Positions 6,898-10,883 of a stretch of 64,000 nucleotides of DNA are shown piece after piece. The position numbers and the translations under genes are program-made. Position 1 is the first letter of the stretch; every line of letters begins with the position of its first letter. The stretch comes from the human T2T-CHM13v2.0 reference genome, Homo sapiens, in the NCBI RefSeq assembly GCF_009914755.1, contig NC_060947.1; one strand, given 5' to 3'. The notes under the pieces are model-generated. The model was not told the DNA's origin. It made no database searches and was given only the letters and a program-made list of their open reading frames with translations.

Positions 6898-7776
6898 TAC
6901 ATATGTATATATGAGATGATTTCAACTTAAGGAAACAGGCAAATAAGGCTATGTATGTCAGAGTGGCAGGGTAGGAGCAATCCTTACTACAGCATGGTGT
7001 CTGTTGTTCAAATGTATCTGTATCATCTTCCCTACTCGCCTACCCCCAATGCATTCATCATGGAAAGGAGGGGCCTGTATGTTAAAATGATTTTTTTTTT
7101 TTTTTTGGTAATACATCAAGTCCCAAGAAACATTGGGGCAGTATCTATCTGGGTAAATACATTGTCAAAGTGGAAAGAAATACATTCCTTACTTCTTTGG
7201 CCCACCAGAGACTCCAGATAAATCAGTAAGATTTGTGTCATCTTGAAGAGTCCAATACATATGCAATATTGCCAAGCAGCACATGGCAGTTCCTTAAGTA
7301 AATTGGGAGGTGGGGTTGGGTTGTATATAGTACCAGAGGAATGAAAAACTGGTTACTCATCTCTGCTGTCTGAACTTGTTCCTAAGCATATATCTTGAAT
7401 TCTATCCCCACTAATAACTGAAGGAAATCTGAAGAGAATTGAGGCTATGCATGTACTGGGGTTGGGAGAAGGGAGCTAATCAAACAGCTCATACTCATTT
7501 CAGACTCATTACTTCACTTGATCTACTCAGCAATCCTGTGGAATATTTTCCCCATACAGTACATAAAAGACGGATTGTGAAGTAAATGTATGTGCAAAAT
7601 TACCTGGTTTGTACTTCTAGCCTAGAGATTCAAACATCACTTGAAATTTATCCTTTTTAAAGTTTTTTTCAAGTATTTATTAAAGTGTTCTCTATTGCCT
7701 TTATAAGCCAACTGACCTGTTACTTTTTTTCTTTTTAGACTCTTTATTAATTTTGTGACACAAGTTAAACATACTC

Positions 7777-8068
7777 TTTTTTTTTTTTTTTGAGACGGAG
7801 TCTCGCTCTGTCACCCAGGCGGGAGTGCAGTGGCGCGATCTCGGCTCACTGCAAGCTCCACCTCCCAGGTTCAAGCTATTCTCCTGCCTCAGCCTCCCCA
7901 GCAGCTGGGACTACAGGCACCCGCCACCACGCCTGGTTAATTTTTTTGTATTTTTAGTAGAGACGAGGTTTCACCGTGTTAGCCAGGATGGTCTGGATCT
8001 CCTGACCTCGTGCTCCTCCTCGGCCTCCCAAAGTGCTGGGATTACAGGCGTAAGCCACCGCGCCCGGC
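7777..8068 (-). mobile_element. Alu (AluSc/Y-like)
   Basis: Poly-T followed by a reverse Alu ending cgcccggcc. TSD aagttaaacata on both sides. Confidence 0.95.
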
Positions 8069-8501
8069 CAAGTTAAACATATTCTTTTGAAAAAATGAAA
8101 GAATACAGATATTCAAAATAAAAAATTTTCCATAAATCTGCCCCTTAGAGAGAAACCAATATTATTAAGCTTTTCGTGTACATCTTATCCAAATTTTTCT
8201 ATGCACACATGTAACATATAAATATACCTATTTTAAATTGGGATATCATATATATGTGTATGTGTCTGTGTACTTGTGTGTACACACATGAACTTTTTCT
8301 ATGCAAATGGAAAAAATCCAGTATTAAAATGCAGACTTGCATATGAAACCATAAAACAAAATCTAATGAGATACTGGTGACAACAAGAACATCTAAAACC
8401 AATATCATCAAAAGGTTAAAAACACAAACATGAGCGAAAGTAAGACTAGAAAATGCAACCTAAAATAAAAGTGAAGCCCTAAAAATATAAGAAAAAATAA
8501 T

Positions 8502-8861
8502 TCAAGACAAAAAGCACTGAATTGGATAAGGCCACTTCCTGGACTGTCTTTTCATCCGATGCATTACTCTAAATTTATTTCTTAATTTTTAAAAATCTCT
8601 TCTGGACACTTTTCTTCTCCTCCTCTTTCTCCTCCTCTTTCTCCTCCTCCCCATCTCCTTCCTCCTCCTCATCCTCTTCCTCCCTCTCCCTTCATTGTTA
8701 TTGACATGCCTATGGGGCAAGCCATCTCCATCTTCCTGGGTAGGTGGTGCTTGTTCCTGGAGATTATTTCCTCTAGCTTCCTGGCCTTCCATTTCTTCCA
8801 AATGTAGCTCTTCCTCTACGTTATGAACACTTTCTTCATTTTCCTGGTGGGAATTTTCCAT
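8502..8861 (-). pseudogene. BEX/TCEAL-family paralog with a disrupted CDS (90-aa ORF 8861-8589, TAA, then an in-frame TCEAL-type C-terminus to TGA at 8502)
   Basis: ATG at 8861 in GACATGG context gives MENSHQENEESVHN..., resembling BEX3 MANIHQENEE. After the TAA (8589-8591) the same frame reads KLRNKFRVMHRMKRQSRKWPYPIQCFLS*, matching TCEAL8 in this window (RVRNKFVMMHWKQRHSRSRPYPVCFRP*). The 3' UTR aligns with that of TCEAL8 (aaaatctaatgagatactggt vs aaaatccaatgagatgctggt). Confidence 0.85.
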
Positions 8862-9249
8862 GTCGAAAGTTGTTTTTCCCTTTTCCTCTTTGACTGCAAT
8901 TACTCCTTGGAGAAAAAAGGGAGGAAATACTGAATGTGTGCTGTTCATTCCAGTACCCGTGTGTTTTCCCGAATCAGGGGGATGAGTGCAAAGGTCTCAC
9001 CTTTCCTCTAATTCATTCCTCTATTCCCTCCAGGTTCTTGCCCTTCTCCCATACCTAAAGAGTACATATATATTCTCTCAGTCTCTCTCAACAATTTTTC
9101 CTTTAGACCATTCTACCAGCCTCTCCCTGGACTGAATGAAACATAAGTAGGAGCAGTGTCTCCTCCTAGTTATGTTCTGGCCTGGACCATTTCCATCCTT
9201 TCACCCCCAACCCTCAGAGGTTCTAGTCCAGAGCATGGCACATAGTGAC

Positions 9250-9313
9250 CTGCCCAAATCCCAGTCAGTTTCGTCTTCCTCTTTCCTTTCTTGAGCCTAA
9301 TAGGCATTTGGAC
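9250..9313 (-). other. Predicted non-coding exon 2 of the BEX/TCEAL paralog
   Basis: Acceptor tttcttctctctgcag| and donor gcag|gtcact. Same size and pattern as the small middle exons of TCEAL8 and TCEAL5. The coding-exon acceptor ttttttctccaag| is at 8906/8905. Confidence 0.6.
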
Positions 9314-9972
9314 CTGCAGAGAGAAGAAAGATAGTGGTACTGAAGTGCTTGGTGGATGGACCAGTATACTAGACAAGGGCCTCTTTGAAGACTGGACACC
9401 AAATCCCTTCAAGCCTCAAAGCTCCTCTTCCCATCCCTGTTTCATCCCCATCTCCTGCTCTAAAATGCCTACCACATTGGATTAAGGGAAATAGTTTCAA
9501 TGATTTCTTAGTCTCCATTTGTCCACATCTGCACCCTCTACATAACCACCATTTCTTTTACATCCTTCCCCCTTCATCTCAATACTCCTCATCTTGGTGC
9601 TTATGCAGCACTCCCTTGCAGGCAGGGTGTAAAAGAAGTGAATTATTTACAAGCTACCCCCAGGTCTATGTGTTCCCTCCTGACCCTCTTTCTCCAGCCC
9701 TTCCCTCCATCCCAAGGCATATCATTTCTGTTTCAAAATATTGAAGAGGTGTCAAAGCAAACAGACCTGTACCTGCTTCAGTTTTTGCCTTCCTTCCCTT
9801 TCACATATACCCCCTTACACCACCACCACTGATGCACAGCTCCAAGTCCAGTTGCTCACGCAGACCTGCTCCATTCTGGGAAAGTGTCTTTCTCCCCCTC
9901 ATCCTCTGGGCCAGACACTAGCCTGTCTCAACAGAAAAGGGGAGTGCTGCAAAAATAAAAAAGACCTGAATA

Positions 9973-10190
9973 AGAGGAATTTACTCACACCTTGGCTCCT
10001 GGTCACATGAAGGTCTCGACTAACGGCAGAGTTTAATCTCCCAACCCTCACATTCACCTCTAGGCTGGCAGGCAGTGCAACAGAAACCACCACCACACTC
10101 CCACCATACACACAGAGAGACCCACCTCCACCCCTCTGTGAACAGTGCCTCAGTGCACACCACCCTGTCACTCTGGTCTTCGCCAATCTT
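9973..10190 (-). promoter_or_regulatory. Degenerate BEX/TCEAL promoter motif of the paralog
   Basis: aggaatttactcacaccttggctcctggtcacatga aligns with TCEAL8 aggacttctgcacacgtcgactcctggtcacgtga. The E-box is CACATG (10004-10009). CCAAT at 10183-10187. Confidence 0.7.
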
Positions 10191-10883
10191 GAGGGGCCAC
10201 AAATGGCATCACCGATGAAGGTTAGTGTTTGCCCTTCTCTGGTTATTAATGAAGGTCTGCACCCCCTATCCGACCAATCCTCCTACGCTCTACCCCACCA
10301 GGCCTTGTTTCTTGTTACCTGTCCCTCCTGTCACCACTCTTCCTCCTCACCCCACCCCAAGCCACCTGTGCCCGCCAACTTCCTTGTTTTTGTCATGCAC
10401 AGTGTCAGGGATCTATAGTGTAATTTTCAGTAATTCTCAATATTTTCCTGCATAGTTTCTTTAAAAATCATAAATACAATAAAGCTATTTTCATTTGGGA
10501 GGAGAAAAGGTTTTTCTTAAGGCCTTTATTTAACATTCCACTAGCTCCAGATTCAATTTTTGCATTACTCCTTTCACATTTCTTGGTCATTGTTCTATAT
10601 TTTACTTTAGAAACTTTAGTTAGAAGCAAGAGTTTTGAAAAGCAGTTCAAGTTTATGCTCTTAGGAAGAGGTAATTTATCATTAATGTAACCATGTAACC
10701 ATTTCAATGTAAATGTCACCTGAAAATTGTAAGGAGGGGAGAAAGGAGAAAGACCTGAATAGAGAATGTGGCATTATTGTCACAGACATAAAGTAACTAT
10801 CAAAGTAGAAAAAGATTTTACTACTGTCTCAAATCCTCAACAACCTGCATTTTGGCCTGTTTGGTCCCAAAAGTATAAATGCA

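What the first reader, a model, noticed from the sequence alone, without database searches (positions are those of the whole stretch)
7490..10490. A third, structurally complete BEX/TCEAL gene cassette next to TCEAL8, with BEX-like and TCEAL-like halves
Seen: on the minus strand there is a promoter motif (9973-10010), an exon-1 donor candidate (cag|gtctgc, 9866), a 64-nt exon with good splice sites (9313-9250), a coding-exon acceptor (8905), an ATG in strong Kozak context (GACATGG, 8861) and a 3' UTR that aligns with TCEAL8. This is the same three-exon layout as TCEAL8 and TCEAL5, so it is a genomic duplicate and not a processed copy. Known (from memory of family sequences): the N-terminus MENSHQENEE resembles BEX3 (MANIHQENEE), while EKCPEEI/LRNKFRVMH...WPYPI resembles TCEAL7 (ERCLEEIRGLRKKFRALH...RPYPI) and TCEAL8. 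Inference: this is an additional family member, possibly intermediate between the BEX and TCEAL branches, which may be intact in other mammals. I cannot tell whether it is already annotated as a pseudogene or lncRNA.
Basis: partly seen in the sequence, partly recalled or inferred. Interest (0 to 1): 0.85.

Follow-up and report, generated by a model that had tools for sequence, protein, structure and literature searches.

The report
Dead fifteenth BEX/TCEAL gene, human Xq22
Between BEX4 and TCEAL8 on the human X chromosome lies the broken relic of an extra, unlisted member of the BEX/TCEAL gene family, whose front half looks like a BEX gene and whose back half looks like a TCEAL gene, and of which an intact 85-residue version turns up in one unnamed public sequence.

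Summary
On the minus strand at about 10261-7500 lies a complete three-exon BEX/TCEAL gene skeleton: a BGW promoter motif (nhmmer E 2.3e-8; one of only 3 hits in the window), an exon-1 donor, a 64-nt exon 2, an exon-3 acceptor, the family's start codon and a 3' UTR colinear with TCEAL8's. It is a genomic duplicate, not a retrocopy.

In human it is dead. Compared with an intact homologue, the coding exon has at least two frameshifts flanking a purine trinucleotide repeat. A TAA stops the ATG frame before the conserved C-terminal helix. The promoter is CpG-depleted (o/e 0.16, against 0.63 and 0.48 for its neighbours). Splice and poly(A) signals are weakened, and an Alu sits in the 3' UTR.

A scan of 1.84 billion proteins found one intact relative (P0123, 85 aa, Pfam BEX 48.6 bits). 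Its best human match is this locus.

Promoter and N-terminal half resemble BEX genes; C-terminal half and 3' UTR resemble TCEAL7/8/9/1. Trees place the locus and P0123 between the BEX and TCEAL clades, though AU tests do not reject a TCEAL7 or TCEAL8 sister position.

The family papers read count 14 genes. This is a 15th lineage, pseudogenised in human. Interest is modest.

The parts
10019..10261 (-). Upstream promoter homology, BEX-like
   Evidence: Positions 10259-9995 align to the region upstream of the X:101.51 Mb BEX gene (BEX1 by my recall of the gene order) at 66% over 270 columns, E 1.6e-24. Positions 10261-10125 align to BEX3 upstream at 74% over 142 columns, E 3e-20. TCEAL7 reaches only 47 bits.
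9939..10018 (-). BGW promoter motif, 3' two-thirds only
   Evidence: nhmmer with a profile of 5 TCEAL BGW elements: E 2.3e-8, 29.6 bits, profile positions 37-118 of 124. CACGTG reads CATGTG here, as it also does in TCEAL9. The conserved GTGACG 5' part is not matched.
9866..9978 (-). Putative non-coding exon 1 (5' end inferred, donor observed)
   Evidence: The donor CAG|GT at 9866/9865 aligns with the exon-1 donors of TCEAL8 and TCEAL5. The start near 9978 is inferred by projecting the TCEAL8 transcription start onto the BGW alignment. No transcript evidence.
9250..9313 (-). Non-coding exon 2 (64 nt)
   Evidence: Both junctions align with exon 2 of TCEAL8 and TCEAL5. The junction pattern is found only at these three places in the window and in 0 of 100 shuffles. 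The donor is GTCACT, against GTCAGT in both neighbours, so the +5 G is lost.
7590..8905 (-). Exon 3: 5' UTR tail, broken coding region, 3' UTR (3' end approximate)
   Evidence: Colinear with TCEAL8 exon 3 and with all 14 family members at 57-65% identity. The acceptor is AAG|G where the family has TAG|G. The 3' end is placed by alignment to the TCEAL8 poly(A) site.
8505..8861 (-). Disrupted coding region
   Evidence: The ATG at 8861 aligns with the family start codon. Against intact P0123, residues 1-47 match frame 1 (8861-8682), 45-61 match frame 2 (8644-8594) and 63-85 match frame 1 (8588-8520). Pfam BEX scores only 19.5 bits, below the cut-off of 26.1.
8611..8683 (-). Purine trinucleotide repeat inside the coding exon
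   Evidence: TRF: period 3, 22 copies; a perfect period-12 array at 8615-8649. It is the only part of the exon with matches elsewhere in the genome, all of them simple repeats. It occupies the place of the short Gly run of P0123.
8669..8671 (-). TGA in the ancestral (Gly-run) frame
   Evidence: Frame 2 reads EGGRG*GG over 8686-8663.
8589..8591 (-). TAA that ends the ATG frame before the conserved helix
   Evidence: The ORF 8948-8589 ends here. It is the X at residue 91 of the read-through.
8588..8595 (-). Second frameshift site (T3A5 run)
   Evidence: Frame 2 (EKCPEEI) ends at 8594 and frame 1 (KLRNKFRVMH) resumes at 8588. Eight bases lie where the intact homologue and TCEAL7 have two codons.
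7777..8072 (-). Alu insertion in the 3' UTR
   Evidence: It matches the other Alu copies of the window at 79-87%. It has a poly(A) tail and is flanked by the direct repeat (A/G)TATGTTTAACTT(G).
7608..7613 (-). Decayed homologue of the TCEAL8 poly(A) signal
   Evidence: The TCEAL8 AATAAA (19997-19992, 19 nt before its annotated end) aligns with TACAAA here. Other AATAAA hexamers lie at 7748 and 7681.

Best explanation
This is an unprocessed (duplicated, intron-bearing) pseudogene. It is the human relic of a fifteenth paralogue of the X-linked BEX/TCEAL family.

[quoted passage not shown] It encoded a protein of roughly 85-110 residues with a disordered acidic N-terminus and a C-terminal amphipathic helix ending in PYPI.

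Its 5' part (promoter, start of exon 3, N-terminal coding) is BEX-like. Its 3' part (helix, C-terminal tail, 3' UTR) is TCEAL-like. It is therefore either a lineage that split off near the BEX/TCEAL divergence or an old BEX-TCEAL recombinant.

Shown for human: the coding exon was broken by slippage in a purine trinucleotide repeat and by a second frameshift in a T3A5 run, so translation from the conserved ATG stops at a TAA before the helix.

Inferred for human: the locus is transcriptionally silent or at most a weak non-coding transcript. The grounds are the CpG-depleted promoter, the missing 5' third of the BGW, the weakened exon-2 donor and exon-3 acceptor, and the mutated homologous poly(A) signal. 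The gene makes no functional BEX/TCEAL protein in human.
For: Gene skeleton homologous to the family:
- BGW motif, E 2.3e-8, one of 3 hits in the window.
- Exon-1 donor and exon-2 junctions aligned with TCEAL8 and TCEAL5.
- Exon-3 acceptor and ATG aligned with 10 family members.
- Exon 3 colinear with TCEAL8, 129 and 66.8 bits, against shuffle maxima of 29.7 and 26.8.
- DNA homology to all 14 paralogues.

Single copy: the only full-length match in the genome is the locus itself.

Broken:
- In-frame TAA.
- Three-segment frame pattern against the intact homologue P0123.
- Pfam BEX 19.5 bits, below the 26.1 cut-off.
- Not among the 19 matches of the whole-genome Pfam BEX search.

Decay of regulatory signals:
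- CpG o/e 0.16, against 0.63 (TCEAL8) and 0.48 (TCEAL5), in the 500 bases around exon 1.
- The BGW matched only from profile position 37.
- Exon-2 donor GTCACT against GTCAGT.
- Exon-3 acceptor AAG against TAG.
- AATAAA changed to TACAAA.
- Alu in the 3' UTR.

A once-functional lineage:
- P0123 (85 aa) reaches Pfam BEX at 48.6 bits.
- Its best human match is this locus: 88.6 bits, against 62 for TCEAL8 and 51 for TCEAL7.
- Its C-half branch is very short, 0.027 against 0.34 for the human copy.
- It folds as a disordered N-terminus plus a helix at 51-79 with block-mean pLDDT 93-96 over residues 51-70 (80 over 71-80). That helix is exactly the part cut off in human.

Not annotated: the RefSeq table supplied with the finding has no row here. 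0 of 485 candidates from named mammalian proteomes matched the read-through. The same database returned 122 matches, many of them named mammalian TCEAL8, for the control query.
Against: - A 90-codon ORF is still open from the conserved ATG, in a good Kozak context. All four splice dinucleotides are intact, so a truncated product or a non-coding transcript is not excluded.
- No expression, CAGE or methylation data could be consulted.
- The CATGTG variant of the BGW E-box is also present in TCEAL9, which the RefSeq table supplied with the finding annotates as protein_coding; whether TCEAL9 is expressed was not tested here. The variant by itself therefore does not show a dead promoter.
- The intact homologue is a single 90%-identity cluster (3 sequences in 3 contigs) of unknown origin. 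It could not be placed in synteny, so orthology rests on sequence alone.
- No other primate or mammalian genome could be inspected.
Confidence: 0.87

Rival explanations
1. The locus is still a working human gene. It would either encode a new short protein (90 aa from ATG 8861: an acidic BEX-like N-terminus plus an arginine-rich tail read from the repeat out of frame) or act as a regulated long non-coding RNA.
For: - Open 90-codon frame from the family's start codon, with purine at -3 and G at +4.
- AG and GT retained at all junctions.
- An almost identical ORF (P0002, 1 difference in 119 aa, 7 member sequences) is present in a public nucleotide archive.
- TCEAL9 carries the same CATGTG in its BGW.
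Against: - The arginine-rich tail is a by-product of a simple repeat read out of the ancestral frame.
- The conserved helix, the only strongly conserved part of the family, is lost.
- Promoter CpG o/e is 0.16.
- There is no RefSeq model (annotation supplied with the finding).
- P0002 starts at an ATG inside the intron, so it is an automatic ORF call on unspliced DNA, not evidence of a protein.
Confidence: 0.08
2. On origin: the gene is not a deep 'intermediate' lineage. It would be an old chimaera made by unequal crossing-over or gene conversion between a BEX gene (5' part) and a short TCEAL gene such as TCEAL8 or TCEAL7 (3' part). Alternatively it is simply a fast-evolving tandem duplicate of TCEAL8.
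For: - Sharp 5'/3' contrast in DNA similarity. Promoter: BEX1 105 and BEX3 91 bits, against 47 bits or less for TCEALs. 5' of exon 3: BEX 61-78 bits, short TCEALs none. C-terminal coding: TCEAL8 51, TCEAL1 44, TCEAL7 37, BEX none.
- The locus lies between BEX4 and TCEAL8.
- Winter and Ponting describe coding and non-coding chimaerism by gene conversion in this very cluster (PMC1274310, passages read).
- AU tests do not reject a clade with TCEAL8 (p 0.157; 0.13 without the human row) or with TCEAL7 (p 0.22; 0.137).
Against: - In the C-half tree the locus and P0123 sit outside the clade of all 15 TCEAL rows (support 89/85 and 84/77) rather than beside one donor. In the N-half tree they are not nested beside one BEX.
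- The whole-length tree separates all TCEALs from them at 96/97, and at 95/91 with P0123 alone.
- TCEAL8 orthologues from 6 orders form a tight clade that excludes P0123 (97/99).
Confidence: 0.35
3. The locus is a processed (retrotransposed) pseudogene, or a chance resemblance inside L1-derived sequence.
For: The family's ORF and 3' UTR derive from HAL1b and L1ME elements (PMC7586669, section 6). Old L1 fragments could therefore mimic parts of a family member. All family copies off the X are processed pseudogenes (PMC1274310; the 4 autosomal hits with stops).
Against: - The locus has the BGW promoter, two upstream non-coding exons with conserved junctions, and introns of family-like size.
- It has the family start codon and acceptor.
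- It lies inside the cluster.
- The statistics are far beyond shuffles.
Confidence: 0.01

Closest known systems
TCEAL8 (window 19973-22133, minus strand) and the other short TCEAL genes (TCEAL7, TCEAL9, TCEAL1)
   Same: Three-exon layout and BGW promoter. Helix motif (E-x-C/L-x-EEI-..-LRNKF-..-MH) and the PYPI/PYPV tail. 3' UTR homology: TCEAL9 88, TCEAL8 75, TCEAL1 71, TCEAL7 74 bits by segment. C-half identity 48-52% for the human copy and 53-54% for P0123.
   Different: The N-terminus lacks the TCEAL 'ENEGKP' start and reads QENEE as in BEX3 and BEX1. Promoter and 5' exon-3 DNA match BEX genes better. The reading frame is broken in human. Trees put it outside the clade of all nine TCEALs.
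BEX genes (BEX3, BEX4, BEX5, BEX1/2)
   Same: N-terminal coding and the acceptor region. The sequence GGAGTAAT..GTC.AAAGAGGAA is shared with BEX1/2/4, and M-x-N-x-x-QENEE with BEX3. A GGEGQ..GN motif is also shared. Promoter upstream of the BGW: BEX1 105 bits, BEX3 91 bits. N-half identity is highest to BEX5 (40% and 44%).
   Different: No BEX-type C-terminus (no M-E-x-F-M-E-E-M-R helix version, no HHDHHDEFCLMP tail). C-half identity to BEX is only 20-31%. The BEX1/2/4 upstream ATG is ATT here.
Processed BEX/TCEAL pseudogenes on autosomes (Winter and Ponting 2005)
   Same: Disabled reading frames of the same family.
   Different: Those lack introns and promoters and lie off the X (PMC1274310; the hits on contigs 13, 3, 22 and 20). 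This one keeps promoter, introns and cluster position.
BEX-like pseudogene at chrX:101794513-101794764 (L017), between TCEAL7 and TCEAL9
   Same: A second unlisted, unprocessed relic in the same cluster. It has stops in frame and a BGW motif about 1.2 kb upstream.
   Different: It is BEX-like along its whole length (BEX4 238 bits, 64% over 793 columns; BEX-type helix and HYHHYD tail). It is not a mosaic and not the same lineage.

Membership tests
BEX/TCEAL family (Pfam PF04538, BEX) | Protein reaches the Pfam gathering score (26.1 bits) | tested here: not met
   The human read-through (X at the stop) scores 19.5 bits, E 0.0017; it is the only family listed. The locus is absent from the 19 genome-wide matches. 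The intact homologue P0123 passes at 48.6 bits, E 1.5e-12. The lineage is therefore a member, and the human copy is a decayed one.
BEX/TCEAL family | [quoted passage not shown] | tested here: met
   Junctions aligned with TCEAL8 and TCEAL5. Acceptor and ATG aligned with 10 members. The layout is as described for Tceal7 in PMC7586669, section 6. This is homology only; no transcript was seen.
BEX/TCEAL family | BGW motif at the promoter / first exon | tested here: met
   nhmmer E 2.3e-8, but only profile positions 37-118 of 124 are matched. The GTGACG 5' part is not recognisable.
BEX/TCEAL family | Position within the Xq22 cluster | tested here: met
   The window is chrX:101680001-101744000. The locus lies between BEX4 and TCEAL8 (annotation supplied with the finding).
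BEX/TCEAL family (functional gene) | Open reading frame through the C-terminal helix | tested here: not met
   TAA at 8591-8589. At least two frame changes relative to P0123. TGA at 8671-8669 in the ancestral frame.
TCEAL subfamily | C-terminal helix of TCEAL type and a [RHW]PYP[IVY] tail | tested here: met
   KLRNKFRVMH...WPYPI in human and LRNKFRIMH...QPYPI in P0123 align with TCEAL7, TCEAL8, TCEAL1 and TCEAL9. BEX against the rest splits at 100/99 in the C-half tree.
TCEAL subfamily | Falls inside the clade of the nine TCEAL genes | tested here: inconclusive
   The best trees exclude it (96/97; 95/91 with P0123 alone). AU tests do not reject a sister position to TCEAL8 (p 0.157 / 0.13) or TCEAL7 (p 0.22 / 0.137).
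BEX subfamily | BEX-type C-terminus (helix M-E-x-F/I-x-E-E-M/V-R and tail ..H-D-x-F-C-L-[MI]-P) | tested here: not met
   Absent from both the human copy and P0123. C-half identity to BEX is 20-31%.
Processed pseudogene | No introns, no own promoter, location away from the parent | tested here: not met
   Introns, BGW promoter and cluster position are all present.

The most novel reading that the evidence does not exclude
The locus and P0123 represent a previously uncounted, ancient fifteenth BEX/TCEAL lineage that branched on the stem between the TCEAL genes and the BEX clade. It would be a 'transitional form' that already has the BEX-type promoter and N-terminus but still has the TCEAL-type helix and PYPI tail. 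It would be kept under selection as a protein-coding gene in some eutherians and lost in the human line. It would show in which order the BEX-specific features arose after the L1 (HAL1b) domestication, and it would raise the ancestral eutherian cluster above the published 14 genes.
Probability: 0.3. Interest if true: 0.5.

Novelty: new member of a known kind. Interest (0 to 1): 0.35.

Why it matters
The BEX/TCEAL cluster is a textbook case of a eutherian-specific gene family born from a domesticated L1 element. It is described in the papers read here as 14 genes (5 BEX and 9 TCEAL).

A fifteenth lineage with a BEX-like front and a TCEAL-like back, intact somewhere and dead in human, would add three things:
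- a data point on how the two subfamilies diverged, or how they recombined;
- a case of lineage-specific gene loss in the cluster;
- a locus that family phylogenies and gene-conversion analyses should include.

For human biology it is most likely an inert relic. Its practical value is as an annotation: an unprocessed pseudogene missing from RefSeq.

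Tried and rejected
- Default-scoring blastn of the region against the window found only Alu copies and one weak 3' UTR match. Sensitive scoring was needed.
- The word-indexed homologue search with the read-through found only the locus's own ORF (P0002). 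The same search with P0123 found only P0123. So no named orthologue was obtained and the source organism of P0123 is unknown. I did not try to identify it.
- HMMER search of the human genome with P0123 ranked TCEAL8 (E 1.9e-9) and TCEAL7 (E 4.4e-6) above this locus (E 0.42, C-terminal piece only), because the repeat and frameshifts split the match. Gapped tblastn (67.4 against 62.0 bits) and blastp against the frame-tracked translation (88.6 against 62.0 bits) reverse the order. This result runs against my reading and is reported as such.
- Segment-wise blastn found no significant paralogue match for exon 1/intron 1, exon 2 or intron 2. Exon 2 therefore rests on its junction motifs and position only.
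- I first read the CACGTG>CATGTG change as promoter death. I dropped that because TCEAL9 has the same base.
- PDB sequence search with P0123 gave nothing relevant (one hit, E 0.38).
- The bacterial promoter/terminator scan is irrelevant to a human locus and found nothing.
- Literature searches for a named pseudogene or extra member found none. The terms were: BEX + TCEAL + pseudogene; TCEAL8P/7P/9P, BEX3P/4P, TCEAL10; 'unprocessed pseudogene' + Xq22 + BEX; TCEAL4P/5P/1P, BEX1P/2P/5P; BGW + Tceal + Bex.
- Earlier findings of the scan were not open.
- GENCODE/Ensembl could not be consulted. The locus may already be annotated there as a pseudogene.

Full report
**What is there**

The window is human chrX (T2T) 101,680,001-101,744,000.
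- a donor CAG|GT at 9866/9865;
- a 64-nt exon at 9313-9250 bounded by AG and GT;
- an acceptor AG at 8907-8906, so the exon starts at 8905;
- an ATG at 8861 in the context GACATGG.

RefSeq, as supplied with the finding, has no model here.

**Is it more than chance?**

I built an nhmmer profile of the BGW promoter element from five other family members (TCEAL8, 7, 9, 5 and the X:102.077 Mb gene), without this locus. In the whole 64-kb window it finds three hits below E 0.7. Two are the seed members TCEAL8 and TCEAL5. The third is 10018-9939, at E 2.3e-8.

The exon-2 junction pattern (TCTGCAGG, 50-75 bases, GCAGGTCA) occurs three times in the window: at the annotated exon 2 of TCEAL8, at that of TCEAL5, and at 9320-9246. 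It occurs in 0 of 100 shuffles. The pattern was derived from these three sequences, so the test shows exclusivity, not independent discovery.

With sensitive scoring, exon 3 is colinear with TCEAL8 exon 3:
- 8931-8288 against 21018-20384, 60% over 669 columns, 129 bits;
- 7708-7514 against 20092-19902, 65% over 205 columns, 66.8 bits.

One hundred dinucleotide shuffles reached at most 29.7 and 26.8 bits. TCEAL8 protein matches 8861-8511 by tblastn at E 2e-9.

**Duplicate, not retrocopy**

Promoter, two non-coding exons, introns (552 and 344 bases here, against 400 and 587 in TCEAL8) and the coding exon are all present in family order. The locus is single-copy. A DNA search of the whole genome with 8288-8960 returned the locus itself plus only simple-repeat matches to the purine tract.

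**State of the human copy**

From ATG 8861 the frame runs 90 codons and stops at TAA 8591-8589. The middle of that frame is a purine trinucleotide array (TRF 8611-8683, period 3, 22 copies), read as an arginine run.

Comparison with an intact homologue (P0123, below) shows a three-segment frame pattern:
- residues 1-47 match frame 1 (8861-8682);
- residues 45-61 match frame 2 (8644-8594, 'GERGGERGGEEKCPEEI');
- residues 63-85 match frame 1 again (8588-8520, 'KLRNKFRVMH..WPYPI').

So there are at least two frameshifts, one inside the repeat and one in the T3A5 run at 8595-8588. There is also a TGA at 8671-8669 in the ancestral frame. The read-through reaches only 19.5 bits on Pfam BEX, below the cut-off of 26.1. 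The locus is not among the 19 matches of a whole-genome Pfam BEX search.

Regulatory and processing signals are degraded too:
- CpG o/e in the 500 bases around exon 1 is 0.16, against 0.63 (TCEAL8) and 0.48 (TCEAL5).
- The BGW is matched only from profile position 37, and the conserved GTGACG is not recognisable.
- The exon-2 donor is GTCACT where both neighbours have GTCAGT.
- The exon-3 acceptor is AAG where 8 of the 10 aligned relatives have TAG; the X:102.077 Mb gene reads TAA there and BEX3 is gapped.
- The hexamer homologous to the TCEAL8 AATAAA is TACAAA.
- An Alu with target-site duplication sits in the 3' UTR at 8072-7777.

One caution applies. The CACGTG>CATGTG change in the BGW is shared with TCEAL9, which the supplied RefSeq table annotates as protein-coding, and so is not by itself disabling.

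**An intact relative**

A word-indexed search of 5.8 billion proteins with the read-through found only the locus's own ORF with one substitution (P0002, 119 aa, starting at an intronic ATG). That is an automatic ORF call and not evidence of a protein. As a control, TCEAL8 returned 122 matches, many of them named mammalian TCEAL8 proteins, so mammalian proteomes are in that database.

An exhaustive phmmer scan of 1.84 billion cluster representatives found one further protein, P0123 (85 aa, E 1.3e-5). P0123 has these properties:
- It is a bona fide family member (Pfam BEX 48.6 bits, E 1.5e-12).
- It comes from 3 unnamed contigs and has no named relative.
- It shares with the human locus stretches found in no other human paralogue: EGQEARGNN-QEQAP, RH-NN-EG and E-x-C-x-EEI.
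- Against all human family loci its best match is this locus: 88.6 bits and 52% over 102 columns, against TCEAL8 at 62.0 and TCEAL7 at 51.2.

A plain HMMER search of the genome ranked TCEAL8 and TCEAL7 higher, because the repeat and frameshifts fragment the match. I report this as a result against the orthology, which is outweighed by the N-terminal matches.

[quoted passage not shown] Block-mean pLDDT is 93-96 over residues 51-70 and 80 over 71-80. This agrees with the family description in PMC7586669, section 7. That helix is what the human copy can no longer encode.

In the C-half tree P0123's terminal branch is 0.027 and the human copy's is 0.34. This fits selection on P0123 and neutral decay in human; that reading is an inference.

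**BEX-like front, TCEAL-like back**

The human genome is held, so I took all 14 intact X-linked paralogues from it. Names for genes more than 100 kb from the window are from my recall of the gene order and are marked with q in the calls.

Best local DNA scores (bits) of each segment of the locus against the paralogues:

| Segment | BEX genes | TCEAL genes |
|---|---|---|
| Promoter 10261-9940 | BEX1 105, BEX3 91 | TCEAL7 47, T1 45, T9 38, T8 34 |
| 5' exon 3, 8960-8700 | BEX4 78, BEX1 70, BEX3 67, BEX2 64, BEX5 61 | short TCEALs none; long TCEALs 34-42 |
| C-terminal coding 8640-8500 | none | TCEAL8 51, T1 44, TCEAL7 37 |
| 3' UTR 8499-8075 | BEX3 58, BEX1 35, BEX2 33 | TCEAL9 88, TCEAL8 75, T1 71, TCEAL7 33 |
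| 3' UTR 7776-7480 | BEX5 55 | TCEAL7 74, TCEAL8 67, T1 64, T3 61, T6 55, T4 34 |

L017, the separate BEX-like relic, scored 50, 37 and 47 bits in the 5' exon 3 segment and the two 3' UTR segments.

At the acceptor the sequence follows BEX1/2/4 nearly base for base, but their upstream ATG is ATT here. The ATG at 8861 aligns with the start codon of BEX3, BEX5, TCEAL8, TCEAL7 and TCEAL1.

Protein identities tell the same story:
- N half: best to BEX5, 19/47 for human and 15/34 for P0123, against TCEAL8 at 17/49 and 11/36. The margin is small.
- C half: best to TCEAL7, TCEAL8 and TCEAL1, at 48-54%, against 20-31% for BEX. The margin is large.

P0123 shows the same mosaic, so the mosaic predates the split of the two sources.

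**Phylogeny**

The tree used 22 rows: 14 human paralogues, six TCEAL8 orthologues chosen from 6 orders out of the 120 listed, P0123, and the frame-tracked human translation. It kept 104 columns. The results:
- BEX is a clade at 100/100.
- All 15 TCEAL rows form a clade at 96/97.
- The locus and P0123 sit on the internode between the two. They are each other's nearest rows, and are one clade in 36% of bootstrap trees.
- With the human row left out, P0123 stays outside the TCEAL clade (95/91) and outside BEX (100/99).
- N-half tree: {BEX + locus + P0123} against {short TCEALs} at 95/98.
- C-half tree: {BEX} against the rest at 100/99, with the two rows basal to all TCEALs (84/77 and 89/85).

AU tests do not reject the following groupings:
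- the pair as one clade (p 0.45);
- a clade with TCEAL8 (p 0.157; 0.13 without the human row);
- a clade with TCEAL7 (p 0.22; 0.137 without the human row).

A clade with TCEAL8 plus TCEAL7 together is borderline (p 0.06).

The intermediate position is therefore the best estimate, not a demonstrated fact. An old BEX-TCEAL recombinant remains a live alternative. Winter and Ponting documented such chimaerism by gene conversion in this cluster (PMC1274310; passages and Table 1 read).

**Comparison with what is in print**

Winter and Ponting's Table 1 lists no gene between BEX4 and WEX3 (TCEAL8). They mention that 2 of 23 human BGW elements are not upstream of known transcripts. One of those could be this element; I could not check this, because the figure is not held.

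Navas-Perez et al. state that the human cluster has 5 BEX and 9 TCEAL genes, and the main text contains no occurrence of 'pseudogene' (PMC7586669; sections 6-8 and term search). A 2021 review repeats '14 genes' (PMC8290160, passage).

Five further term searches found no named pseudogene or extra member. Either may already show this locus.

**Verdict**

This is a real, unprocessed pseudogene of a fifteenth BEX/TCEAL lineage with a BEX-like 5' part and a TCEAL-like 3' part. It is dead in human and intact in at least one unnamed source. It is a new member of a known kind. It is of moderate interest to people working on the evolution of this cluster and of little consequence for human gene function.

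Noticed in passing
outside the window: G000:C23:101794513-101794764 (-), locus L017 (window coordinates about 114513-114764): A second unlisted relic of the family lies between TCEAL7 and TCEAL9. It is BEX-like along its whole length (BEX4 238 bits, 64% over 793 columns). It has TGA and TAG stops in frame and a BGW motif about 1.2 kb upstream (E 1e-6). It is not among the genes the hub listed within 100 kb after the window.
   Followed up: partly
window 8611-8683 (-): The purine trinucleotide array inside the dead coding exon stands where the intact homologue has a run of five glycines. The repeat seems to have grown from the Gly-codon run and carries one of the frameshifts. Similar arrays are common genome-wide: 125 other matches, all to this tract.
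   Followed up: partly
window 7777-8072 (-): A sense-oriented Alu with an A-tail of about 15 bases and a 13-14-base target-site duplication is inserted in the relic's 3' UTR.
   Followed up: no
L036 (upstream of TCEAL9), BGW element: TCEAL9, annotated as protein-coding in the supplied RefSeq table, carries CATGTG instead of the CACGTG found in 9 of the 13 aligned BGW elements (the others: this locus CATGTG, the BEX5 element TAGGAG, L017 CACATA). The canonical palindrome therefore does not seem to be required in every member.
   Followed up: no
proteins P0114 and P0098: Some database 'TCEAL8' entries are odd. A Budorcas entry joins a TCEAL5/3-like N-terminal repeat region to a TCEAL8 C-terminus. 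A Molossus entry has an internal tandem expansion. These may be mis-annotations or real lineage-specific fusions or expansions.
   Followed up: no
window 5750-6103 vs 38272-38620, and 11962-12037 vs 17117-17193: Further non-Alu similarities occur between the flanks of the relic and the flanks of TCEAL5 and TCEAL8 (65% over 356 columns, E 8e-35; 68% over 78 columns). They could be shared old repeats or remains of the duplication unit.
   Followed up: no
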